Below, piece after piece: positions 1 to 44,850 of a stretch of DNA of 64,000 nt. The stretch's first letter is position 1. Each line of letters starts with the position of its first letter. Made by a program: the position numbers and the translations under genes. Origin of the DNA: Pristiophorus japonicus (Eukaryota); contig NC_091983.1 of the NCBI RefSeq assembly GCF_044704955.1, forward strand, positions 93,434,001-93,498,000, written 5' to 3'. The notes beneath the pieces were generated by a model that was not told the origin of the DNA, ran no database searches, and saw nothing but the letters and a program-made list of their open reading frames with translations.

Positions 1-2200
1 CCTCCCTGGGTGCATTGCTTAACTGTGAACATGTGTTATATTTGTGCATGCAGGACTCTAAGTCCACATCGATACCACGCCACCACACGTGGGATCTAAC
101 TATCACTTTCATCATTACAATGCTTGGGTGGGTACTGTGGAGATCACTAATGAAAGTGTTCCTGCCCTTTTTGGGTACTACTAACCGATTACCCAACGCA
201 GTCTGCCTGTATAGACATTTCATCTTTACGCCGCTGGTATGGCTTTATCCCTTCCTGCATTTCTAATGGGACGCTGGACCAGTTCCCGTGAAGCACACAG
301 TTTTTTACAAAGAACGGTAAGGGGTCCTGGCTAGTCCAGGTTCTAATCTGTCGTTGGTAACAGGTGATTGCTCACTCTCGAATGTTTCCATTACCATGAC
401 TAAATCTGCGAGTTGTGCCATTTCGACCCCCGTGGTAGGCAATGGCAGCCTACTGAGAGCATTGGCACAGTTTTCTGTGCTTGGCCTGTGGCGGATCGTG
501 TTGTTGTATGTGGTCAACGTGAGCGCCCATCTCTGGGTGCGGGCCGATGCATTCGTATTTATCCCCTTACTTTCAGAAAAGAGAGATATCAGTGACTTAT
601 GGTTCGTTTCTAATTCAAATTTAAACCCAAAAATGTATTGGTGCATTTTCTTTACCCCATAAACACACGCTAATGCTTCTTTTTCAATCATGCTGTAGGC
701 CCTCTCAGCCTGAGACAGACTTCTGATGCAGAAGCAACTGGTTGCAATTTCCCAGATTCATTCGCTTGTTGTAATACACACCCGACACCGTATGACAACG
801 CATCACATGCTAGTACCAAACGCTTACATGGATCATACAGCACAAGCAATTTGTTTGAACATAACAGTTTTCTAGCTTTTACAAATGCATTTTCTTGGCT
901 TTTACCCCATACCCATTCTTCTCCTTTATGCAGTAAAGAATGCAGTGGTCCTAACAGTGTGCTGAGACCCGGTAAGAAGTTACCAAAGTAGTTCAGGAGT
1001 CCTAGAAACGAACGCAGCTCCGTCACGTTCTGTGACTTCGGTGCGTTCTCAATTTTCTCCGTCTTCGAATCGGTGGGCCTGATGCCGTCTGCCGCAATTC
1101 TTCTCCCTAGGAACTTCACTTCAGGCGTCAGGAAAACGCACTTCGAGCGTTTTAGCCTGAGCCCCACGCAGTTAAGCTGACTAAGAATCTCCTCCAGGTT
1201 CTGCAGATGCTCGACTGTGTCCCGACCTGAAACCAAGATGTCGTCCTGGAAGACCATGGTGCGCGGGACCGACTTCAGTGAGCTTTTCATGTTTCTCTGG
1301 AAAATCGCCACGGCTGATCGAGTCCCAAATGGGCATCTGTTGTAAATGAAGAGACCTTTGTGCGTGTTGATGCAGGTGAGGCCCTTCGATGATTCCTCCA
1401 GCTCCTGCGTCATGTAGGCCGAGGTCAAGTCCAGCTTCGTGAACGTCTTTCTTCCCACCAGCATTGCAAAAAGGTCGTCTGTCTTTGGTAGTGGGTATTG
1501 ATCTTGCAGGGAGAAACGATTGATAGTAACTTTGTAATCACCACAGGTTCTGATGGTGACGTCTCCCTTGAGGACTGGAACAATCGGACTGGCCCACTCG
1601 TTGAATTCAATCGTCGAAATGATGCCCTCTCGTTGCAACCGGTCCAGCTCGATCTCCACCCTCTATCTCATCATGTATGTTACCGCTCTTGCCTTGTGAT
1701 GGATGGGTCGTGCTCCCGGAATTAGGTGGATCTGCACTTTTGCTCCTTGGAACTTCCCGATGCCTGGTTCGAACAGCGAGGGGAACTTGTTTAAGACCTG
1801 GGCACACGATGTGTCGTGGACGGACGAGAGTGCTCGGACATCGTCCCAGTTCCAGGATATCTTCCCCAGCCAACTCCTGCCGAGCAGCGTGGGGCCATCG
1901 CCCGGTACCACCCAGAGTGGTAGCTTGTGCACCGCTCCATCGTAAGAGACCTTTACGGTAGCACTGCTGATTACGGGAATCAGTTCCTTTGTGTACGTTC
2001 TCTGTTTAGTGCGAATGGGAGTCAGGACTGACCTTGAGGCCTTGCTGCATCACAATTTGTCGAAAGTTTTTTTGCTCATAATGGACTGGCTCGCGCCCGT
2101 GTCCAGCTCCATTGACACCGGGAGTCCATTTAATTCAACTTTCAGCATTATCAGGGGACACTTTGTGGTAAATGTGTGCACCCCATATACCTCTGCCTCC
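1..2200 (-). pseudogene. pol: Gypsy pol (protease-RT-RNase H-start of integrase), frameshifted
   Basis: ORF fragments 1663-1932, 688-1659 (RT: WASPIVPV, DYK, LDLTSAY, CPFG, FQDD) and 305-691 (RNase H: EKEALA, TNHK, NALSRLP). Confidence 0.93.
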
Positions 2201-2851
2201 TCGGCCTGAGGCTCTGGTTCGCCGTGATCTGCCGTGGATCTGTCCTCCTCTAATGGTGGTTTGCAGGATTAGCAGGGTTTGCAGCTCGCTTGCACATATG
2301 TTGGAGGTGGCCCATTGTTCCACAGCCCTTGCAAACATATCTTTCGAAGCGGCTATGGCTTTACTCAAGGTTGGGGTCTCTACAGTCAAAAGTTTGTGAA
2401 GTATCACTTCATGTCCAATGCCAAGTACAAAGAAATCCCTGAGCATGTGCTCCAAATGTCCTTCAAATTCGCAATGTCCTGCAAGACATCTTAGCTCGGC
2501 GACATAGTTCGCCACTTCCTGGCCTTCAGACCTTTTGAGCGTGTAGAACCGGTACCTCGCCATCAGAACGCTTTCCTTCAGGTTAAGATGCTCCCGGATC
2601 AGTGTGCACAAATCATACAATTTCTCTGTGGGTTTCACTGGAGCAAGCAGATTTTTCATGAGGCCATACGTTGGTGCCCTGCAAACAGTGAGGAGAATCG
2701 CCCTTCGTTTGACAGCGATCGCTTCTCCTTTCAGCTCGTTGGCCACAAAGTATTGGTCGAGTTGCTCCACGAAGGATTCCCAATCATCTCCCTCTGAAAA
2801 TGTCTCCAGGATGCCCATTGTTCTCTGCATCGTTGCGGTGGGGTTCTTCAT
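2135..2851 (-). pseudogene. gag: Gypsy gag, with internal deletion before the zinc knuckle
   Basis: MQRTMGILETFSEGDDWESFVEQLDQYFVANEL...RYRFY...YVAELR..LA.HCEF...LRDFFVLG. Jumps after TLSKAIA to the knuckle remnant CKGCGTMGHLQHMC. Confidence 0.9.
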
Positions 2852-2869
2852 CTGTATCTCGTCGCCAGT

Positions 2870-3081
2870 TGTTACGTATGAATAAAGAGTCTGACCAGAT
2901 ACTGTGAGCTCAAAGTAAAGTGTGACCTTAGTCTTTCATTACAGATCTCCAGAGTGCCTCTCTCGCCTGTGAGGCCTCCTTAAGTACAGGTGCTCCCAAG
3001 GGATTGTGGGATCCCTTGGGCCTCCAGGAGATGAGCCCTCTGGTGGTTAAACAAGTTATTTACAGGTTTACATATCTAACA
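2870..3081 (-). repeat. 5' LTR (212 bp, TG...CA)
   Basis: Begins TGTTA and ends TAACA; abuts the PBS. Confidence 0.85.
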
Positions 3082-3234
3082 ACTGGGAACCAAAGAATAG
3101 GGGACAAATTCCACCATTGTTATTTAACTTTACGTTTCTTTGCTAAATAAAGTGATTATCTCCAGTACTGAACACAGTGGTTTTATAATTAGTATAGCAA
3201 TGTGAAACTATCTAAGTAAACCACTGTCCGCTTT

Positions 3235-3432
3235 CAACATCACAACATCACTCAAAACAGATTACTTAGTCATTATCTCATTGCTGTTTGTGGGACCTTG
3301 TTATGTGCAAATTGGCGGCCGCATTTCCTACATTATAATAGTGACTACACTTGAAAAGTACGTTATTGGCTGTAAAGCGCGTTGGAACATTCCAAGGTCA
3401 TGAAAGGCGCTATATAAATGCAAGTTCTTTTA
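3235..3432 (+). mobile_element. Deu-domain SINE (SacSINE1-like) 3' fragment
   Basis: CATTGCTGTTTGTGGG...GTGACTACACTT...TGAAAGGCGCTATATAAATGCAAGTTC; matches the copy at 18040-18610. Confidence 0.75.
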
Positions 3433-25746: not shown

Positions 25747-25980
25747 TGATAGGTCCTTACGAGACAGTATAAATGAACACGAGGCCCATGCTTGAGAGAA
25801 GGTCAGTCTGTGACCTGTCCTTTATTCCTTAGCACTCAAGTGATGAAGGTGGGTGGAGCTTCCCCTTTTATACCTGAAGGTTCAGGTTAGGAGTGTCTCC
25901 CACCTAGTGGCCATTGTTCTCACAGTGTACAACTTAGGTCAGATTATACATGGGTTACAATGCTGGTTGAATACATAACA
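25747..25980 (-). repeat. 3' LTR
   Basis: Direct repeat of 29619-29852; about 8 mismatches counted by eye. Confidence 0.95.
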
Positions 25981-26008
25981 TCACCTCCCCCCCAAAGTCT
26001 TATTGGGA

Positions 26009-29000
26009 TCACAGGTTAAGTCTCTCTGGTGGTTTACGCTCTCTTGTAGAGCACCTGAGTTGGGGCTCCGGTTGTTGGGCGATGGCCTGAGTGTCTGCTG
26101 TTTGCGGTGCCTCAGGCCGATCCAGACTGCCCACAGTGATTGGGCTCTCCTCCCTTTGGTTCCGGTGTTCGGTCACCTGTGGTGGAGTGAACTCGACATC
26201 GTGTTCTTCCTCTGCTTCTTCTATGGGGTTGCTGAACCTCTTTTTTGTTTGATCCACGTGTTTGCGGCAGATTTGTCCATTGGTAAGTTTAACTACCAGA
26301 ATCCTATTTCCCTCTTTGGCAGTCACAGTGCCTGCGAGCCATTTGGGCCCTGCAGTGTAGTTGAGAACAAAAACAGGATCATTTACATCAATACATCGCG
26401 CCCTCGCATTCCTGTCATGGTAGTCATATTGTGGCTGGCGCCTGCTCTCGATAATTTCTTTCATGGTGGGGTGTATAAGGGATAGCTGGGTTTTGCGCGT
26501 CCTTTTCATTAGCAGCTCTGCGGGTGGAACCCCTGTGAGCGAGTGTGGTTGGGATCTATAGGCCAACAGGAGGCGTGATAAGCGTCTTCATAGGGAACCC
26601 CCTTGGATTCTGAGCATCCCCTGTTTGATTATCTGCACTGCTCGTTCTGCCCAGCCGTTTGAGGCCGGCTTGAACGGTGCCGTTCTGACATGGTTAATTC
26701 CATTGCCTGCCATGAAGTTCTGGAATTCAGTGCTTGTGAAGCACGGGCCATTGTCGCTGACCAAGACGTCCGGTAGACCGTGGGCGGCGAACATTGCCCA
26801 TAGACTTTCTACCGTGGCAGAGGATGTGCTTGAATTTAAAATGTCACACTCGATCCATTTGGAGTAGGCGTCTACTACAACCAAAAACATTTTTCCCATG
26901 AAAGGACCTGCGTAGTCCACATGGATGCGTGACTAAGGCTTGGCGGGCCATGGCCAGGGGCTAAGGGGGGGGCTTCCCTGGGCACATTGCCCAGCTGGGC
27001 ACACGTGTTGCACCTGCGAACACAAAGTTCCAGATCTGCGTCTATCCCTGGCCACCAAACGTGTGACCTGGCAATTGCCTTCATCATGACAATGTCTGGG
27101 TGCTCATTGTGGAGTTCTCTGATGGACACCTCTCTGCCCATCTGGGGCATGACTACGCGGTTTCCCCACAGTAGGCAATCGGCCTGAATCGAGAGTTCAT
27201 CCCTGCGCCTGTGAAATGGTTTAAATTCCTCAGGGCATGCCCTGTACGTGGCTGCCCAGTCCCCATTCAGGATACATTTCTTGACTCGAGACAATAGCGG
27301 GTCTCTATTTGTCCAGACTTTGATCTGACAGGCTGTCACGGGTGAGCCTTCGCTTCCGAAAGCTTCAACAGCCATGACCATCTCAGCAGCATGCTCGGTA
27401 GCCCCCTCAGTGGTGGCTAGTGGGAGCCTGCTGAGTGTATTGGCGCAGTTTTCGGTGCCCGGTCTGTGCCGAATTGTATAGTCATAGGCGGCTAACGTGA
27501 GTGCCCACCTCTGTATGTGGGCCGATGCGTTTGCATTTATGGCCTTTTTGTCGGCCAAAAGGGACGTTAGGGGTTTGTGATCTCCAGCTCAAATTTCCTG
27601 CCAAACAGGTACTGGTGCATTTTCTTTACAGCATATACACATGCGACGCCTCCTTTTCTACCATCCCGTAACCCCTTTCTGCCTGGGACAGACTCCTGGA
27701 GGCATAAGCTACCGGCTGTAACTGACCCTTGACATTGACATGCTGCAACACACACCCGACACCATAGGATGACACATCGCACATTAACACAAGTTTCTTA
27801 CATGGGTCATATAGCGTTAACAGATTGTTGGAACATAACAAATTGCGTGCTCTATTAAAAGCCCTTTCCTGGCTGTCCCCCCAGACCCATTCGCGACCTT
27901 TGCGTAGGAGCACGTGTAGCGGCTCTAGCAGCGTGCTCAATTTGGGAAGAAAGTTACCAAAATAGTTCAGGAGCCCCAGGAACGAACGCAGCTCCGTCGT
28001 GTTACGGGGTCTGGGTGCTCTCTGGATCGCTTCCGTCTTGGACGCAGTAAGGCTGATCCCGTCTGCTGCTACCCTCATCCCCAGGAATTCTACCTCTGGA
28101 GCTAGGAAAATGCATTTCGTCTTTTTCAGTCGCAGCCCTACCCGGTCCAGTCTGCGTAGCACCTCCTCCAGGTTGTGGAGGTGTTCTTCAGTATCGTAAC
28201 CCGTGATGAGGATGTCGCCCTGAAAAACCACCGTCCCTGGAATCGACTTGAGGAGGCTTTCCATATTTCGTTGGAAGATCGCGGCGGCCGAGCGAATCTC
28301 GAACGGACATCTGTTGTACTCAAACAACCCCTTGTGTGTCGTGATGGTGGTCAGCTTCTTCAACTCACTCGCCAGCTCCTGGGTCATTTAAGCTGAGGTC
28401 AAGTCCAATTTTTAAAAGAGTTTGCCACCGGATAGCGTCGCAAAGAGGTCCTTCGCTCTTGGTAGCGGGTACTGGTCTTGGAGTGACACCCGATTGATGG
28501 TGGCCTTGTAATCACCACATATCCTGACCGACCCATCCGCCTTGAGCACCGACACGATTGGGCTCGCCCAGTCATTGAATTCGACTGGCGAGATGATGCC
28601 TTCCCTCAGCAGGCGGTCCAATTCGCCTTCTATCTTTTCCCGCATCACGTACGGCACCGCTCTGGCCTTGTGGTGTACTGGCCTGGCGTCCGGGTTTATG
28701 TGAATCACTACCTTGACCCCCATGAAAGTGCCGATGCCGGGTTGAAATAATGAGTCAAATTTGTCCAGGATCTGTGAGCATGATACTCGCTCCACAGAGG
28801 AAATTGCATTGACATCGCCCCTTTTCCAGTTCATGACAGCAGCCAACTCCTCCCCAGTATTGCGGGACCGTCCCCGGGGACAACCCAGAGTGGCAACCTG
28901 TTCTCCGAATCTTTGTGGGTCACGACTACAGTGGCGCTGCCTAGCACTGGAATGATCTGCTTTGTGTAAGTCTGTAGCTGTGCGTCAATCGGCGCTAATT

Positions 29001-29200
29001 TTGGCCTCCTGGCCTTGGACGCCCACAACTTTTCGAACTGTTTGATACCCATCAGGGACTGGCTGGCCCCCGTGTCTAGCTCCATTGATACTGAGATGCC
29101 ATTGAGGAGCACTTTCATCATTATCGGTGGCGTCCTGGTGTATGAACTGTATACGTGCTCCACATGAACTCGCTGAACTTCAGCTTCCAGCGATTTCCCC
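26009..29200 (-). pseudogene. pol: Gypsy pol (protease, RT, RNase H, integrase), frameshifted
   Basis: MELDTGAS; RT with FQGD in place of the DD motif; RNase H; integrase HHCC (H..HP...C..C), DYAGP, SDNG, AERAV. Confidence 0.95.
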
Positions 29201-29618
29201 CAGCATTCATTTCTGCAGGTATTTTGCTCATCTCTGCAAACTCCGGCTGAGTGTGTGCCTCCACGCCTCCAACATGAGCTGTTGTTGGAAACAAAAGGTC
29301 CCTTGCCAGTCGATCGTCCCTGACTGCCCCTGTGACTGTCCTTGAATGCACCATTAACAGGTGTTGATGGCCCCATAAGTGGCCGCATTGTCTCTTGCAA
29401 TAGCGTGAATCGTCGTTCAACTTGCCATTGTCGATGTTGAACTCCTCCTCTGGGTTCGACTACATGTTGGGGCATGCCCGATTGCCCTTGTCTGGAGAAC
29501 TGTGTGCTGCTTTAACAATGTTGAATCTCTGTCCCAACCATTCCTTAACACAGTATCTCTCATCTGTTCTACTAGTGGCCATGCTCGCGTGGTTTAAATC
29601 CCAGTTTCTCGTCGCCAT

Positions 29619-29852
29619 TGATAGGTCCTTACTATACAGTATAAATGCACACGAGGCCCATGCTTGAGAGAAGGTCAGTCTGTGACCTGTCCTTTATTCC
29701 TTAGCACTCAAGTGATGAAGGTGGGTGGAGCTTCCCCTTTTGTACCTGAAGGTCCAGGTTAGGAGTGTCTCCCACCTAGTGGTTATTGTTCTCACAGTGT
29801 ACAACTTAGGTCAGATTATACATGGGTTACAATGCTGGTTGAATACATGACA
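29619..29852 (-). repeat. 5' LTR
   Basis: Adjacent to the PBS; TG...CA; AATAAA on the minus strand. Confidence 0.95.
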
Positions 29853-34820: not shown

Positions 34821-35971
34821 TCACTGGAAACGAAGTCTGATGAGGTGGTCATGGACCGATCTTCCAGATTGAGTGGCTGCCTCCTCTGTCGCTGCTGTTC
34901 GTCCTCCTCTTCCTCCTGTTCTTCCTCTTCTTCCTCCTCGTCCTCTTCCTCCTTTTCCTCCTCCTGAGGTGGTGGAGCTATGCCTCGTGGCAATGGCTGC
35001 ACCCTCGTGATGGCCAAATTGCGCAGCATGCAGAAGACGACAACGAAAAGTGATACCCGCACCTCCCAAGTGGTCAAGGCAACGGAACCATTGCTTGAGC
35101 ACTCCGATGGTCTGCTCAATGATGTTCCTGGTGGCAGCATGGCTCTCTTTATATGAGTGCTGGGCACAAGTGTTGGGGCTGTGGAGGGAGGTCATGAGCC
35201 AGGTGGAGAGCAGATAGCCCTTGTCTCCCAGCAGCCAACCGCAAGCTTCATGTGGTAGCTGGAAGAGAGTTGGCACACCCTTCTAGTGGAGGATGAAGGC
35301 ATCGTGGCTGCAGCCAGGATAGCAGGCGTTGACGTTGAGGATTTGCCATGTGTGGTCGCACACCAAGTGCACATTAAGTGAGTGGTAGCCTTTGCGGTTA
35401 CAGAATACCTCAGGATTGTTATGAGGTTCCCGCAAAGCCACGTGGATGCAGTCAATGGCGTCCTGCCCCATTGGGAAGCTCGCTATCCTGGCAAAGCCAC
35501 ATGCATACTCTTGGTGCTTCTCTCTGGTCATGGGGAATGAAACATAGTCCTCTCCTCCTTCTGTACAGAGCATCTGTGACCTGGCGGATGGAGCTATGGA
35601 CGGCAAACTGGGAGATGCTGGTGATGTCTCCTGTTGAAGGATCCGCTGGTGTAGAAATTGAGCGTGATGGTGACCTTGACTGCCACTGAGAGAGCCGTTG
35701 TCACCTTGGTTTGAGGCTCGAGGTGTGTCTGCAGGAGGTGGCAGAGCTCTGTGACCACGTCCTTGCTGAAGCGGAGCCTTCGAACACACTGTTCCTCAGT
35801 AAAATTCATGTTGGAGAACTGCTGCTTGAATACTCTGGGTGGGTAAGGCCTCCTGTTGAGAGCCTTGTTGGCCCTCCTACCTCTGGCCACATTTTGCACT
35901 CTTTCTCTGTGCCTCAGTTGCCTCTGATGTTGACAACGGAGGGCGAGGTCCAGTGCCAGTACAGCCCACAT
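34821..35971 (-). pseudogene. Harbinger DDE transposase (HARBI1-like), frameshifted
   Basis: RRPYP, CVRRLRF, ALSV.VKV, AIDCIH, NRKGYHSLNV, YPGCSHDAFI, LGDKGY, IIEQTIGVLK, CMLRNL, acidic tail. Confidence 0.92.
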
Positions 35972-36810: not shown

Positions 36811-37037
36811 GTACTGTCAATAAGGTTTACACTGTGTACATCCATGCTGGCACCACTAGCGGGCACAACTGGTGGAAATCAGGGGTTTCCTGCCCTGGTG
36901 GCAGGGCCCTGTATAAAAGGCTGCACACCATGCTTGTGGGGCACTCTGGAGTTTGGAATAAAGGACCACGGTCACTACAGTTTGTGTACAACACATTGCC
37001 TCGTGGAATCATTCATAAGTACATTATAGACATAACA
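36811..37037 (+). repeat. 5' LTR (5'-truncated by about 80 bp relative to the 3' LTR)
   Basis: TATAAAA and AATAAA present; ends TAACA; aligns with 40030-40255. Confidence 0.88.
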
Positions 37038-37056
37038 ACTGAACTTTCACGCAATC

Positions 37057-39430
37057 ATGGCTACATTTGGCACACTAAAAGACTTTGCAGAGGGTGACGA
37101 TTGGGATGCCTTCAGGGAAAGGCTCGAGCAATATTTCATGGCAAACGACCTGGCGGGGAGACGGAGAAGCGCAAGGCTATACTGCTGACCAGTTGTGGGC
37201 CCGAAGTCTACCGCCATGTCAGGGACTTGCTGGTACCCATGAAGGCCAAGGATAAGACATATGATGAGCTGACTGAACTATTCGCGACCAACTTAAACCA
37301 AAAGAGAGCATCCTCACGGCCAAGCACAGATTCTACACTCATCGCAGACCTGAGGGCCAGGAAATTGCAAAATATGCTGCCGACCTCAGGAGACTTGCGG
37401 CACCGTGTGATTTTGGCACGCACCTTAACGAAGCATTGCGAGACATCTTCGTTATTGGAATTGGCCACGGGGGCCTCCTTCACAAGCTATTATCTGCTGA
37501 CACCACAATTAACCTGCAGAAAGCCATCGGCATCAGTCAGGCGTTCATGACCTCGATCTGCAGCACCAAGCAAATTATTCATCTATGGACTCAAACTCGG
37601 CAAGTACTATACACAGAATGGTGCCTTTCACAGACAAGACTGTAAAACGTGGCTCTGCCCAGGGCAGAGAGCACAGACCTCAGGGTTCCAGAACTCAGAG
37701 TCCACCGAGGGGTGCTAATCGAGGAGCACCATGCTGGCGTTGCAGAGGAAACCATAGGGCTCACCAGTGTCGGTTTGCTGAGTACGTGTGCAAAGCCTGT
37801 AACACGAAGGGCCACCTCCAGCACATGTGTAAAAGAAATACGACTCACTGTCTCGCAAAGGAGTCGGTAGATGACTTTGAATCCAGCGGGGAGTATGATG
37901 ATTTGGCCAGAGAGACAGCTCAGCCCCAAGAAGAAGTGTATGGAGTGTATACCTGCACCACCGATTGTCCTCCAGTGAAGATGGAAGTCGTGATAAATGG
38001 CGTTCCAGTCTTCATGGAAGTGGACACGGGAATGAGCAAGTCAGTGATGAACCAGGATGCCTTTGAGAGGCTATGGAACGAAAAATGACCCGAGCTGGTT
38101 CCAGTACAAGAAAAGTTGCGCACCAACACCAATGAGCCGATCCCAGTACTTGGTAGTGCGGATGTAAGTGTAATCCATAATGGCATGGTGCACAAGTTAC
38201 CACTGTGGATTGTTGCAGGTGATGGTCCAATGCTACTCTGAAGAAGGTGGATGGAGAAGATCCAATGGAAATGGGAAGACCTCTTCACTCCAGTAATCGA
38301 TGTCCCCCGTGCTCAGAGGCAGAGCAAAACCTCACCTTCGCTTGGGCCAGGCACCAGAGAATAAACCAGCGCAGCACCTGAGGCACAGATCATCCATCAC
38401 GACTGCGTGGCAATGATCCGACCGGAATGATCTAAAAATACCTTCCCGGCTCCAGTGGCAGGACTCCTGGGGAGGAAGATCGAATTCACAGGTACCCTTC
38501 CAGCGTTTGTGGCAGAATCACGGGATAGAAGGATCAAGGCACTCGACCTCGAGGACCAAGGCAAGATGGCGTCCCTGCTGCAGCGAGGGGCAGCGTGGCT
38601 GAAAAAAAAGATGGCCACAGCAATATCACAAGGTGCAACACTGAGGGACCAACACGTGCTGTCCAACAAAGGATTTGATTTGGGTAAAGCCAGCAGGGTT
38701 CTCTTAAAGAAGACCTGCAACCAACTGCACTTAAAGAGACATTGTATGCATGGCAATCAATGTAATGAACCGATTAAGATTGTGAACAAAATGTTGTTGT
38801 GAGATGTCGGCACTGTAAAGAACAAAATGCTGTTGCGAGATGGCAGTACCAGTCCTAATGTAAAGAACAAAATGCAAAATGTTGTCGCGAGATGTTGGGA
38901 ATAGAGTGTCCCCAAGAATAGCAAGCGAGCGAATTCGGGAAGGTAAAGGTGCTGATCCTGATACCCTGCCCCAGGTGTCCCCACAAGTTATGAGCCAGCG
39001 ACCTCAGGTTGGTGAAGGCATTGATCCTGATACCCTGCCCTAGGTCTATCCCATGCTGCAGGCACCCGATGGCAACATTCGCCACGGACCTGGAAACAAA
39101 AACGGCGCCAATACGCGCAGTCAGTCACCATCGCCCACCACCTGGGTGGAGACGGCGCAGCCCCCAGACACAGTCGCTACCTCGGCCATGTCCGGGAGCG
39201 AAAGGTCAGAACCAACGAGTTCCCCAAACGGGACCTGGAACAGCCAGGTTCCCAACACTGTGAGAGAGCAGACAGAAGACTCTGCAGCCCTCAAAGGAGG
39301 ACAGGGAGGCCACACACAGCTGTGGCTCTGCCCACCACTAGGCATCGGCAAAGGCCCCGAGTCCTGGCTCGGTGAGCGAACCAAGCCCACCCCGCTAGCA
39401 GGGGGCGCAGCGCCGCTATCAGACGACTAG
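37057..39430 (+). pseudogene. gag: Gag-protease polyprotein with long unrecognised C-terminal extension
   Basis: MATFGTLKDFAEGDDWDAFRERLEQYF; CWRC..H...C, C..C...GH....C; MEVDTG; KLPLWIV.GDGP. The frame continues past the protease with only point stops and one 7-bp duplication. Confidence 0.8.
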
Positions 39431-39950
39431 GGCCCCGTCCAATTGCTCTGAAACTAGTGTCCTCGCATACCTGTACTGCTACCTCAGTACTGACCATGAC
39501 TAAACCATGAATGTAATCTACCCAATCCTAGCGCACGACTGTAAAACATAACGAATGTAAATCACTGAACCCAGGTGTCACGATACAAACTGTAAAAAAA
39601 AATGTTCTTACTTTCTTTGTACTTGCACTGTGTCTGATCCTGTATGTTAATGTAACGGACCAGCTGCATGATCTCGCTGTGGGGTGGGGGGGGGGAAATG
39701 GATGTATGTAGCCATGGACACACACCTGGATCACACCCAGAACCCACTGGAACCTCCACCGCATCATCAAACCATGCAAACTGATAACCACTACCCAACG
39801 TTGTAGCAAAAGGATTTGGGGATTAACAGGGAGAGAGCCAAGCCAAAGCACAGCCAAGGTGCAAGGGCCATTGGCGCTTAAGTCTGGGGAGAGGTAAGCC
39901 AGAGCACATAGTACAAAGGTAATTGGCACCAAGGATTTGGGGGAGAGTGA

Positions 39951-40255
39951 TGTTGTATATGCAGACTATGGATGTACTCTATGTGTAGTCACTGTCTGAT
40001 TGCATTAGATGGAGACTTGTTTACCTGATGTACTATCAATAAGGTTTACACTGTGTACATCCATGCTGGCACAACTAGAGGGTGCAACTGATGGAGACCG
40101 GGGGTTTCCTGTCCTGGTGGCAGGGCCCTGTATAAAAGGCTGCACACCATGCTTGTGGGCACTCTGGAGTTAGGAATAAAGGACCAAGGTCATTACAGTT
40201 TGTGTACAACACATTGCCTCGTAGAGTCATTCATAAGTACATTATAGACATAACA
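39951..40255 (+). repeat. 3' LTR (305 bp, TG...CA)
   Basis: Starts TGTTG after the PPT and ends TAACA. Confidence 0.9.
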
Positions 40256-42700: not shown

Positions 42701-43258
42701 CAGAATCAGAATATTAAGAGAGGCATTCTTAAATGCCTCATCTGCCAGATTAATTGGTGTAGCATACACATTGATCATAGCGCTCAAAAAGTAAAACATT
42801 CTTCTGACAGCAGTTCTGCTTGTGTCAGAAGTCAAGGAATTTTCCAACATTGGTCGCTCGGATCACTTATTGGCACTGCATAAACCTTTACACCAGCAGC
42901 ACAATTTCTAGATTTATGGACTTAATTTTCCCCAAGCCCGTTTTCTGGCATATTGCCAGTTACACCCGTTTTTCTAGGCCAGAAATGCGGCAGAAATATT
43001 TTGCCAAAGTTTCCCCGATGTATAATTCGAATTTGGCGTCACACAGCGTGTCCAGTTGCCTCGGGGGTGGAGCCTGCTTCTGCACCAAAAAACAAAGCTG
43101 CGGAAAGAATAAGTTACGTTTTTGACGTTGTTCCAATGGACGTGCATGTTCAGTATAGCTCGGATTTGGAAACCGGCCATTTTTAAAGAGCCAGTTGTGT
43201 GTGAGAGAAGGAGTGCTGTGTGAGAGCATTGGAAAAATCGCAGCTGGAGCAATACAAG

Positions 43259-44850
43259 ATGCAATGCGGTGCAAGGACCAAGAATTTCTTACAGGAAGAA
43301 GTGGAGGCACTGGTTACTGTGATTGAGAACAGATGGCAGGAGCTGGACACCAGCAGAGGTGACATAAAAGTTCCACTCAAAGAAATGAAGAAACGCTGGA
43401 ACCAAGTTGCAGAAGATTACTGCACGAGATCTGGAAGGCAGTGTAAAAAGAAGTGGTCAAGTAGTTAGTGTAAGTAATATTTTCATTTATTCAATGGAAT
43501 TGCAAGTGTAAATGTGTCCCACCCAGCAGAAATACACCCTCTCTAAAAAGTTGCATTTTCATCTTTGCAGAGGAAGGTGGCACATAATAAAAGGGAAAGA
43601 ACTCGAACAGGAGGAGGCCCAGAAAATCTGCACCCACTGATACCCTTGGAAGAGAGGGTCACTGCTTTGATGGGTCCTGCCTGTAAAAAAGCAATCAGTA
43701 CTGCAAAAGCAGGGCCCACACTCGAGGGAGAGGGTAAGTCCTGCAAATTCATCATGGTCCTTCAAATCAGCCTAATGCCTGGCTGGCGATGTGTGAGCCT
43801 ACTCACGCCATCCATCCTGCCCCCTCCTCTGCTGCTAATCAGTTGACTGTTATGTTATCTTTTGCAGAACTTGAGGCCAACCCTGACAATGCAGAAGAAG
43901 ATTCAGATGAGGATCAGCCTGAAGAGGAGAACATCTTCCAATCCAACCCTCCAGACCAAGAACATGGGGGTGAGGGGGAGGGGGAGGGGATAGAGCTGGA
44001 TGAAGCTCCCACTGTTGTACAGACGTTGGAGGAGGTGCCGCTCATGGAGGTGACAGCCCCTTCCATGACTAGAGGTTTGAGTGTTGGTGGGACATTCCAT
44101 GGTTTTACACCTTCCAAGGTTGCGGGTCCCAGTGGTGGGGTGCACCGAGGCACACACAAGGCTCCACTTTCCGAGGTTGCCGGTCCCAGTGGTGGAGTGT
44201 AGCGAGGCACACCTAGGGCCCCACCGTCCCAGGCTGTGGGTTCCAGTGTTGGGGTGCAAGCCACATCTGTGGGGAAGAGGGGAGGAAGAGCTCGACCGTG
44301 CTCTCCTGAGGTGCAAAATACAACAGATGTGGTTCAGATGATGCAATTGAGTGCAGAGAGCATTGACCTTACCCGATCACTCCTGGATGCCATCAGTGGG
44401 GTGAGTGATGAGGTAACGGGACTGTCGGCAGAAGTGACAACAATGACACGAGAAATGGGAATGATATCCGGGACCATCTGTGAGGGAATAGTGGCTGTGA
44501 GGGAGGGAATGTCAGATGTAGTGCAAACCACGTCACTGACCATGAGGGAGGGAATGTTGCAGGTCGTTGAGACACTGTCAGGGCGCATGAGGGACGGCAT
44601 GTTGGAGTTAGCTGCTGCAATAAGAGAACATGCCCAGACCCCGCGCCCATTGACAGAATCAACTGTCACTCACACGCCAATCCCCACATAGCCTCTGAAG
44701 AGTGCCAAGCCGGGCCCTCCAACTTGCCGCCTGACACTGACGCCTACCCCCCACCCCCACTCAAGAGGTGCACAGTACCCGAGATGTTAAAAAGAATAAG
44801 CTTGGTACCAAGTCCAGAAACAAGCGCAGTGGGCAGATGGGTGCAGCCTT
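43259..44850 (+). pseudogene. Harbinger Myb/SANT-like DNA-binding gene, 3 exons (43259-43469, 43571-43733, 43868-~44850)
   Basis: RTKNFLQEEVEALV..IENRW...WNQVA....RSG.QCKKKW. GTAAGT donors at 43470 and 43734; TTGCAG acceptors ending 43570 and 43867; phase consistent across intron 2. Small deletions and stops. Confidence 0.88.

What the first reader, a model, noticed from the sequence alone, without database searches (positions are those of the whole stretch)
37057..39950. Gypsy derivative whose Gag-protease frame continues into ~380 codons of unknown sequence instead of RT/RNase H/integrase
Seen: between two LTRs, gag, zinc knuckle and protease are present but no pol enzyme motifs. From 37585 the same frame runs through the protease to about 38880 with only single-codon stops, several explicable as CGA>TGA or CAA>TAA (38086, 38362, 38428, 38800). 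A 7-bp duplication (CAAAATG, near 38870) shifts it into the frame of ORF 39053-39430. Inference: the ancestor encoded one polyprotein, Gag-PR-X, where X is basic and then Pro/Ser/Thr-rich. This would be a non-autonomous family supplying its own capsid and protease plus a novel passenger domain, and borrowing RT/IN in trans from relatives such as the two other Gypsy elements here. Gag-only non-autonomous LTR elements are known in plants; I do not recognise X.
Basis: partly seen in the sequence, partly recalled or inferred. Interest (0 to 1): 0.72.

Follow-up and report, generated by a model that had tools for sequence, protein, structure and literature searches.

The report
Retrotransposon keeps dead pol translatable
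This is a broken copy of a high-copy jumping gene, likely from a shark, that encodes its own capsid and protease; the 'unknown' tail after them is the eroded remnant of its lost copying enzymes, which the family kept free of stop codons, likely to keep its RNA translated to near the end rather than to make a new protein.

Summary
The anatomy is real and multi-copy: a ~3.45-kb LTR family with 5-bp target duplications. Across 30 copies one phase has no majority stop from gag (37057) to 39428. X is not a novel passenger. It aligns, in that phase and colinearly, to Gypsy pol of the same genome. Two sister families also keep the relic open. Between families Gag-PR is conserved (dN/dS 0.29-0.35) but X is near neutral (0.80-0.96), although neutral change would have stopped it (P about 0.001 per lineage), and it has shed hydrophobic residues. 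Best reading: a semi-autonomous Gag-protease Mag-like element, like wheat Sabrina_SA/WHAM, whose dead pol is kept as translatable filler, probably to avoid long-3'UTR decay (inferred, untested). The scan noted a similar 'filler must stay translatable' case before, on another genome (e1-8576812), and another pol-less family in this genome (e1-9852668). New variant of a known kind; modest interest.

The parts
36811..37037 (+). 5' LTR, lacking its first ~78 bp
   Evidence: missing part not found elsewhere in the window
37038..37056 (+). leader; the family's primer-binding site (TGGCGACGAG two bases after the LTR in other copies) is deleted in this copy
   Evidence: 14-column gap at 37041; PBS in other copies; tRNA-Ser as primer is recalled, not tested
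37057..37731 (+). gag N-terminal and capsid region, broken by three deletions in this copy
   Evidence: Retrotrans_gag E 0.0068 on a sister copy, below the curated cut-off
37732..37830 (+). two zinc knuckles, CX2CX3HX4C and CX2CX4HX4C
   Evidence: sequence; present in 15 and 18 of 21 family copies; zf-CCHC_2 E 0.0012
37981..38292 (+). aspartic protease, DTG at 38023; two stops in this copy
   Evidence: catalytic Asp in 19 of 21 copies
38293..39427 (+). X: internally deleted, eroded pol relic in frame with Gag-PR (post-protease linker, a deletion junction near 38400, then RT thumb/connection and RNase H remnants)
38443..38476 (+). remnant of the RT 'FLG' box
   Evidence: blastn 79% over 34 nt, E 0.019, to window 28108-28075; same register in the profile alignment
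38868..38874 (+). 7-bp insertion private to this copy
   Evidence: window-only columns
38906..39043 (+). 69-bp (23-codon) tandem duplication inside X
   Evidence: 74% identity between units; one unit absent in 3 of 41 copies
39056..39265 (+). best-preserved pol remnant: end of RNase H and the linker to integrase
   Evidence: BLASTP E 5e-9; DNA profile match 39076-39175, E 2e-9
39428..39430 (+). family stop codon
   Evidence: 26 of 30 copies
39431..39932 (+). 3' non-coding region, no match to the autonomous family's profile
   Evidence: stops in all phases
39933..39950 (+). polypurine tract
   Evidence: sequence; shared by copies
39951..40255 (+). 3' LTR, complete, 305 bp

Best explanation
This is a dead copy of a high-copy Gag-protease LTR retrotransposon whose tail X is a deleted, eroded pol remnant kept free of stops across three sister families; it likely borrowed reverse transcriptase and integrase from an intact relative, and X was likely kept only as translatable filler that places the stop codon near the RNA's end, probably to escape nonsense-mediated decay. 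Shown: multi-copy spread by retrotransposition (target duplications, solo LTRs); one open family frame; pol ancestry of X; loss of the RT and integrase cores and of the RNase H acidic residues; purifying selection on Gag-PR; near-neutral amino-acid change in X with frame retention; loss of hydrophobic residues. Inferred: that masters made Gag-PR-X and were packaged with Pol from the 4.56-kb autonomous family (about 0.7); that selection acts on the open frame more than on the sequence (about 0.75); that the reason is decay of RNAs with a long 3' UTR (about 0.45; a stop right after the protease would leave ~1.9 kb instead of ~0.77 kb up to the AATAAA in the 3' LTR); that hydrophobic loss makes the useless tail harmless once the protease cuts it off (untested).
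For: Family: 40 of 40 scored hits out of 5,927 first-look candidates, 86-91% apart from self. Of 34 loci picked by LTR alone, 25 had family internal sequence and 9 were solo LTRs; none showed RT or integrase between family LTRs, only the RNase H relic. 5-bp TSD with <=1 mismatch in 14 of 21 two-LTR loci and 8 of 9 solos. Pol ancestry: profile-profile X vs natural pol, sister family B prob 98, E 2.6e-13, 370 columns, 28%; this family prob 80, E 1.4e-5; family C prob 28, E 6e-4. All 18 controls (reversed, other phases, shuffled) gave prob <=1.6. A DNA profile of the autonomous family matches in colinear order, with gaps at the RT core and integrase. Selection: net dN/dS Gag-PR 0.29 (0.23-0.38) or 0.35 (0.27-0.45), X 0.80 (0.63-1.02) or 0.96 (0.77-1.18) for kappa 2 or 4; the within-family baseline in X is 0.59-0.84. 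Neutral simulation leaves X stop-free in 0.05-0.15% of runs at distance 0.2 and in 2.5-3.5% at 0.1. Stop-free runs of 868, 867 and 924 codons in A, B, C. Indels shared by >=3 copies keep frame in 5 of 7 cases in X and 0 of 5 in the 3' UTR; private ones in 19 of 71. Hydrophobic fraction is 0.23-0.25 vs 0.347 in pol and 0.338+-0.022 in simulation, with T at four-fold sites unchanged. A fourth sister family has an unrelated tail, so X is replaceable. Helper: the 4.56-kb family shares the LTR end AGACATAACA and the following ACTGGCGACGAG.
Against: No direct test of decay or of trans-complementation was run. Family D copies stop 570-860 nt before the 3' LTR (8 copies), so some length is tolerated and no threshold is shown. 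Weak amino-acid constraint is not excluded: best-aligned X columns give 0.70 (0.52-0.93) at kappa 2, A-B alone 0.60-0.81, and within family A the 3' third of X has a third-position excess (0.126 vs 0.091 and 0.097). Hydrophobic loss itself shows that the protein product is seen by selection. The three families are not independent. X aligns with many gaps, which inflates dN. The transversion-only test has very wide intervals. In family B several frame-shifting indels are shared by two copies. Global searches do not see pol in X: Pfam 0 hits, PDB 0, and 1 hit (a family member) among 1.84 billion representatives. The true parent element was not found: the Gag-PR families sit on their own branch.
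Confidence: 0.65

Rival explanations
1. X is pol-derived but has been co-opted as a working, largely disordered tail of the Gag-PR polyprotein (a spacer that helps protease dimerisation or particle assembly, or a basic RNA-binding segment), selected for length and composition rather than exact sequence.
For: Significant hydrophobic-to-polar bias in matched columns (40:23, 74:34, 53:17 for A, B, C) without T loss at silent sites; dN/dS 0.60-0.72 in the best-aligned A-B columns; the unrelated tail of family D has a similar composition.
Against: Near-neutral overall dN/dS; 8-13 indel blocks per family pair, up to 34 codons; tail replaced outright in family D. Purging hydrophobic residues is also expected for harmless filler.
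Confidence: 0.22
2. X is retained for RNA-level signals (packaging, dimerisation, RNA length), and the open frame is a by-product of recent descent from a functional pol.
For: The deleted derivatives all stay at 3.1-3.6 kb; no RNA-signal test was run.
Against: X is only about 28% identical to pol and the families differ by a summed 0.47-0.59 changes per site in X; neutral change would give about 6 stops per lineage; shared indels keep frame in X but not in the UTR.
Confidence: 0.1
3. One reading: X is a novel passenger domain unrelated to pol, under purifying selection.
For: No Pfam, PDB or Atlas match and no hit outside the family in global searches.
Against: Colinear, in-phase protein and DNA alignment to pol with negative controls; dN/dS near neutral.
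Confidence: 0.02

Closest known systems
Wheat RLG_Sabrina_SA and RLG_WHAM, 'semi-autonomous' Gypsy elements (PMC9744471; passages read)
   Same: High-copy Gypsy families encoding Gag plus protease, no RT or integrase, proposed to supply Gag and use a partner's enzymes.
   Different: Plant Gypsy lineage, 8-kb elements; the passages read describe no in-frame pol remnant after the protease.
Wheat RLG_Quinta / RLG_Cereba pair (PMC11302176; abstract and passages)
   Same: Gag followed in frame by a domain of unknown function; partner identified by shared PBS and LTR termini.
   Different: Quinta's extra domain is suggested to be acquired, and the passages read list no protease; here the extra part is traceable pol and a protease is kept.
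TR-GAG of plants (PMC4350172; passages)
   Same: Under 4 kb, LTRs, PBS, PPT, one ORF with Gag and zinc finger.
   Different: Defined by lacking aspartic protease and pol similarity; this family has both a conserved protease and a pol relic.
Non-autonomous Fatima of wheat (PMC3129301; passages)
   Same: Gag + protease variant beside a pol-bearing variant with only weak gag similarity, much like the capsid-less pol family seen here.
   Different: The two Fatima forms share 91% LTR identity; here LTR similarity to either pol-bearing family is limited to short stretches and termini.
Non-autonomous RLC_Angela of wheat (PMC9744471; passages)
   Same: Amplified family carrying a degenerated pol.
   Different: Angela's coding region is full of stops and frameshifts; here the family frame stayed open through the relic.
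Mag lineage of Ty3/Gypsy (PMC2577118, PMC11117352, PMC3286476; passages and a table)
   Same: Single fused gag-pol frame, short LTRs, two CCHC arrays, mostly 5-bp TSD.
   Different: RT and integrase are missing; no RT tree against named Mag references was made.

Membership tests
Semi-autonomous Gag-Pro LTR retrotransposon (Sabrina_SA/WHAM type) | LTRs, PBS, PPT and TSD across many copies | tested here: met
   this copy itself lacks PBS and TSD
Semi-autonomous Gag-Pro LTR retrotransposon (Sabrina_SA/WHAM type) | Gag and protease under purifying selection | tested here: met
   net dN/dS 0.29-0.35; catalytic Asp in 19/21, 14/14, 11/11 copies
Semi-autonomous Gag-Pro LTR retrotransposon (Sabrina_SA/WHAM type) | No functional RT or integrase in the family | tested here: met
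   none in 25 LTR-picked loci with internal sequence; RT DD outside the aligned relic, RNase H acidic residues 0 of 4 in A and B
Semi-autonomous Gag-Pro LTR retrotransposon (Sabrina_SA/WHAM type) | Autonomous partner sharing PBS and LTR termini | tested here: inconclusive
   the 4.56-kb family shares LTR end and PBS and overlaps in age; only two pol-bearing families were examined
TR-GAG | Single ORF with Gag, under 4 kb | tested here: met
TR-GAG | No protease or pol similarity | tested here: not met
   not filed as TR-GAG
Mag lineage (Ty3/Gypsy) | Two CCHC arrays in nucleocapsid | tested here: met
   feature from PMC2577118
Mag lineage (Ty3/Gypsy) | Single gag-pol frame, 200-300 bp LTRs, 5-bp TSD | tested here: met
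   features from PMC11117352 and the table in PMC3286476
Mag lineage (Ty3/Gypsy) | PBS for tRNA-Ser or tRNA-Leu | not tested
   PBS sequence seen; its match to tRNA-Ser is recalled only
Mag lineage (Ty3/Gypsy) | RT phylogeny places it with named Mag elements | not tested
   no named Mag reference was fetched; the protease tree holds only local families and two unnamed outgroups
LTR element with captured host or novel cargo | Inserted region unrelated to pol | tested here: not met

The most novel reading that the evidence does not exclude
A long-lived vertebrate retrotransposon lineage turned its dead pol into a translated, hydrophobicity-purged filler, and such Gag-protease donors work as one half of a split system whose other half is the capsid-less PR-RT-RNase H-integrase family in the same genome: a two-component retrotransposon in which neither half is autonomous.
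Probability: 0.25. Interest if true: 0.65.

Novelty: new variant of a known kind. Interest (0 to 1): 0.4.

Why it matters
It removes a false 'new domain' and shows how one arises: a pol remnant can erode past recognition by Pfam and global searches while staying an open frame of ~380 codons. If the filler reading holds, these families are a natural test of whether RNA surveillance, rather than protein function, can keep a long reading frame open over long evolutionary times, and they extend Gag-protease semi-autonomy, described in the papers read for plants, to a cartilaginous fish.

Tried and rejected
Raw pairwise dN/dS among 30 copies: X 0.54, but the 3' UTR control gave 0.65 and other phases 0.62-0.97, and four to six rows were non-homologous over gag, so it was set aside for net between-family distances. 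Transversion-only test: same direction, intervals too wide. AlphaFold on a natural PR+X stretch with a 4-row alignment: mean pLDDT 32, even the protease unfolded, uninformative, so no fold search was run. ESM Atlas: no usable hit. Pfam, PDB and three homologue searches plus the 1.84-billion search found no pol in X, only fragments of these families inside proteins labelled Pristiophorus japonicus. Tandem Repeats Finder found nothing in the window element. A weak match of the start of X to the pol C-terminal tail (E 0.03-0.2; 9e-4 at best) was rejected in favour of the colinear post-protease linker. Recurrent stops are spread over both subfamilies, so they are not inherited master stops. Eight literature searches listed no paper on this family or on a pol relic kept as an open frame; Repbase, Dfam and subscription journals were not searchable, and no supplements were read, so prior annotation is not excluded. 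PMC10886601 held none of the terms gag, shark or protease.

Full report
Observation. The element spans 36811-40255 on the + strand. The 3' LTR is complete (39951-40255, 305 bp, TG..CA, preceded by a polypurine tract); the 5' LTR lacks its first ~78 bp and is 93% identical over 228 columns; the missing part is not elsewhere in the window. Gag starts at 37057, two zinc knuckles lie at 37732-37830, the protease at about 37981-38292. The copy is dead: six in-phase stops (38086, 38239, 38362, 38428, 38800, 39041), three deletions in gag, a private 7-bp insertion at 38868-38874 and a 14-column gap over the primer-binding site.

A family, not a one-off. Searching the own genome (5.9 Gb) with 38350-39500 gave 5,927 first-look candidates, of which 40 were scored, all matching (86-91% apart from self); this is not a copy number. 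To avoid selecting on X, I took the 40 best LTR matches, which reduce to 34 other loci: 21 with two LTRs, 4 with one LTR plus internal sequence, 9 solo LTRs. None had RT or integrase between family LTRs; pol hits nearby belonged to separate elements. Five-bp target duplications with at most one mismatch were found in 14 of 21 two-LTR loci and 8 of 9 solos; LTR pairs of 16 full-size copies average 92% (84-97%). A tree of 41 of 45 copies is star-like, terminal branches 0.052: an old burst followed by decay. None of 30 copies is stop-free. The only named relatives are UniRef proteins labelled Pristiophorus japonicus, so a shark host is likely.

One open family frame. In 30 aligned copies one phase has a single column with 30% or more stops between 37057 and 39427 (38086, 10 of 30) and ends at 39428 (26 of 30); the other phases have 31 and 42. 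Recurrent stops fall in both subfamilies. Two sister families met in fetched loci (B, 14 of 20 fetched copies used; C, 11 of 20; the rest were truncated, interrupted or outside the size window) are 3.3-3.6 kb, lack pol enzymes and have stop-free phases of 867 and 924 codons. A fourth (D, 16 of 20) has Gag-PR with a tail that shows no pol match. In a protease tree (5 rows per family, 33 of 72 rows) A-D form one clade, 100/99, apart from both pol-bearing families.

X is a pol relic. The window's ORF 39044-39427 aligns to the RNase H end of the Gypsy pol in the same window (26 of 70, E 5e-9); this match recurs in 21 of 21 family A elements tested. Profile-profile alignment of the open phase against nine natural pol ORFs gives prob 98, E 2.6e-13, 370 columns at 28% for B (reference 319-742: RT FLG box, thumb, connection, RNase H, start of the integrase zinc domain), prob 80, E 1.4e-5 for A (334-619) and prob 28, E 6e-4 for C. 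All 18 controls scored prob 1.6 or less. A, B and C tails align with each other along their length, so the clearer ancestry of B carries over. A DNA profile from seven copies of the 4.56-kb autonomous family matches in colinear order and skips the RT core and the integrase. The RT aspartates lie outside the relic and none of four RNase H acidic residues survives in A or B (one of four in C; first row of each family only). The Pro/Ser/Thr-rich look comes from erosion plus in-frame tandem duplications (69 bp in A; 54 bp in B). Against this, Pfam, PDB, Atlas and the 1.84-billion-protein search do not see pol in X: the signal needs close local pol as reference.

What selection acts on. Net between-family distances (within-family diversity subtracted) give dN/dS 0.29 (0.23-0.38) to 0.35 (0.27-0.45) for Gag-PR and 0.80 (0.63-1.02) to 0.96 (0.77-1.18) for X; the within-family baseline in X is 0.59-0.84; best-aligned X columns give 0.70 (0.52-0.93) to 0.84. 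The summed tree length in X is 0.47-0.59 per site, about 0.16-0.2 per family; simulated neutral change of 0.2 gives about 6 stops and leaves X open in 0.05-0.15% of 2,000 runs (2.5-3.5% at 0.1). Indels shared by three or more A copies keep frame in 5 of 7 cases in X (the two exceptions are 1- and 2-bp events in three copies each) and 0 of 5 in the 3' UTR; private ones in 19 of 71. In B some frame-shifting indels are shared by two copies, which counts against. Hydrophobic residues fell from 0.347 in the homologous pol to 0.23-0.25, against 0.338+-0.022 in simulation, with silent-site T unchanged; matched columns show 40:23, 74:34 and 53:17 losses to gains. The reference pol is a relative, not the parent, and A-C share ancestry.

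Mechanism. Shown: spread by retrotransposition, conserved Gag-PR, no working enzymes, an open but near-neutral relic. Inferred: masters made one Gag-PR-X protein and were copied by Pol from an intact relative. The 4.56-kb family (window 1-3300 is a member) has capsid and protease in 14 of 14 loci, shares the LTR end AGACATAACA and the following ACTGGCGACGAG with A and B, and has LTR pairs of overlapping age. The element at 25747-29852 and 8 of 8 relatives lack any capsid match and differ at the LTR end; those eight were picked for long frames, so their young age is biased. Why keep the frame? A stop after the protease would leave ~1.9 kb untranslated instead of ~0.77 kb. Long 3' UTRs promote UPF1-dependent decay and Rous sarcoma virus needs a stability element after gag to escape it (review PMC5031192, passages). 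I rank this first (about 0.45), a composition-selected working tail second; neither was tested. The 'filler that must stay translatable' reading matches an earlier scan note on another genome (e1-8576812), which I did not check on its DNA and which is not independent support; my reading before that look-up gave protein-level selection on X even odds, and one search is what decided it here.

Comparison with known systems. It works like the semi-autonomous Gag-Pro Gypsy elements of wheat, Sabrina_SA and WHAM (PMC9744471), Quinta (PMC11302176) and non-autonomous Fatima (PMC3129301); it fails the TR-GAG definition because it has a protease and pol similarity (PMC4350172). Two CCHC arrays, a single frame, short LTRs and 5-bp TSD fit the Mag lineage (PMC2577118, PMC11117352, PMC3286476), but no RT tree with named references was made. 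All papers were seen as term-search passages only; no supplements were read. Eight searches listed no description of this family or of an in-frame pol relic; repeat databases were not available.

Verdict. Observation partly confirmed; interpretation partly supported. No new domain. A new variant of a known kind, with one unusual and testable feature: a dead pol kept as an open frame. Interest 0.40.

Noticed in passing
window 25747-29852 (-); L131-L138: A 4.1-kb family with protease, RT, RNase H and integrase but no capsid match (0 of 8 loci plus the window copy), LTR pair 96.6% in the window: the mirror image of the Gag-PR families and itself dependent on a Gag donor.
   Followed up: partly
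window 1-3300 (-); L140-L153: A 4.56-kb full gag-pol family sharing LTR end and PBS with the finding's family; best helper candidate.
   Followed up: partly
L111-L130: Family D: Gag-PR sister family, ~3.1 kb, LTR pairs 94% on average, with an unrelated tail containing an AG microsatellite; origin of the tail not traced.
   Followed up: partly
L047, L053: Further-deleted family A copies (2,385 and 1,192 bp) with target duplications; whether such forms amplified was not checked.
   Followed up: no
G000:C13:14983991-14986413: A family B copy with many tandem units of the 54-bp RT-derived repeat.
   Followed up: no
window 34824-35795 (-) and 43205-43465 (+): Broken DDE_Tnp_4 nuclease and Myb/SANT-like ORFs, as in Harbinger-type DNA transposons (family name recalled), on either side of the element.
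   Followed up: no
P0007, P0011, P0012: Database proteins named P2X purinoceptor 1, phosphodiesterase 7A-like and VSIG10-like 2 contain pieces of these families; annotation artefact or exonisation, not checked.
   Followed up: no
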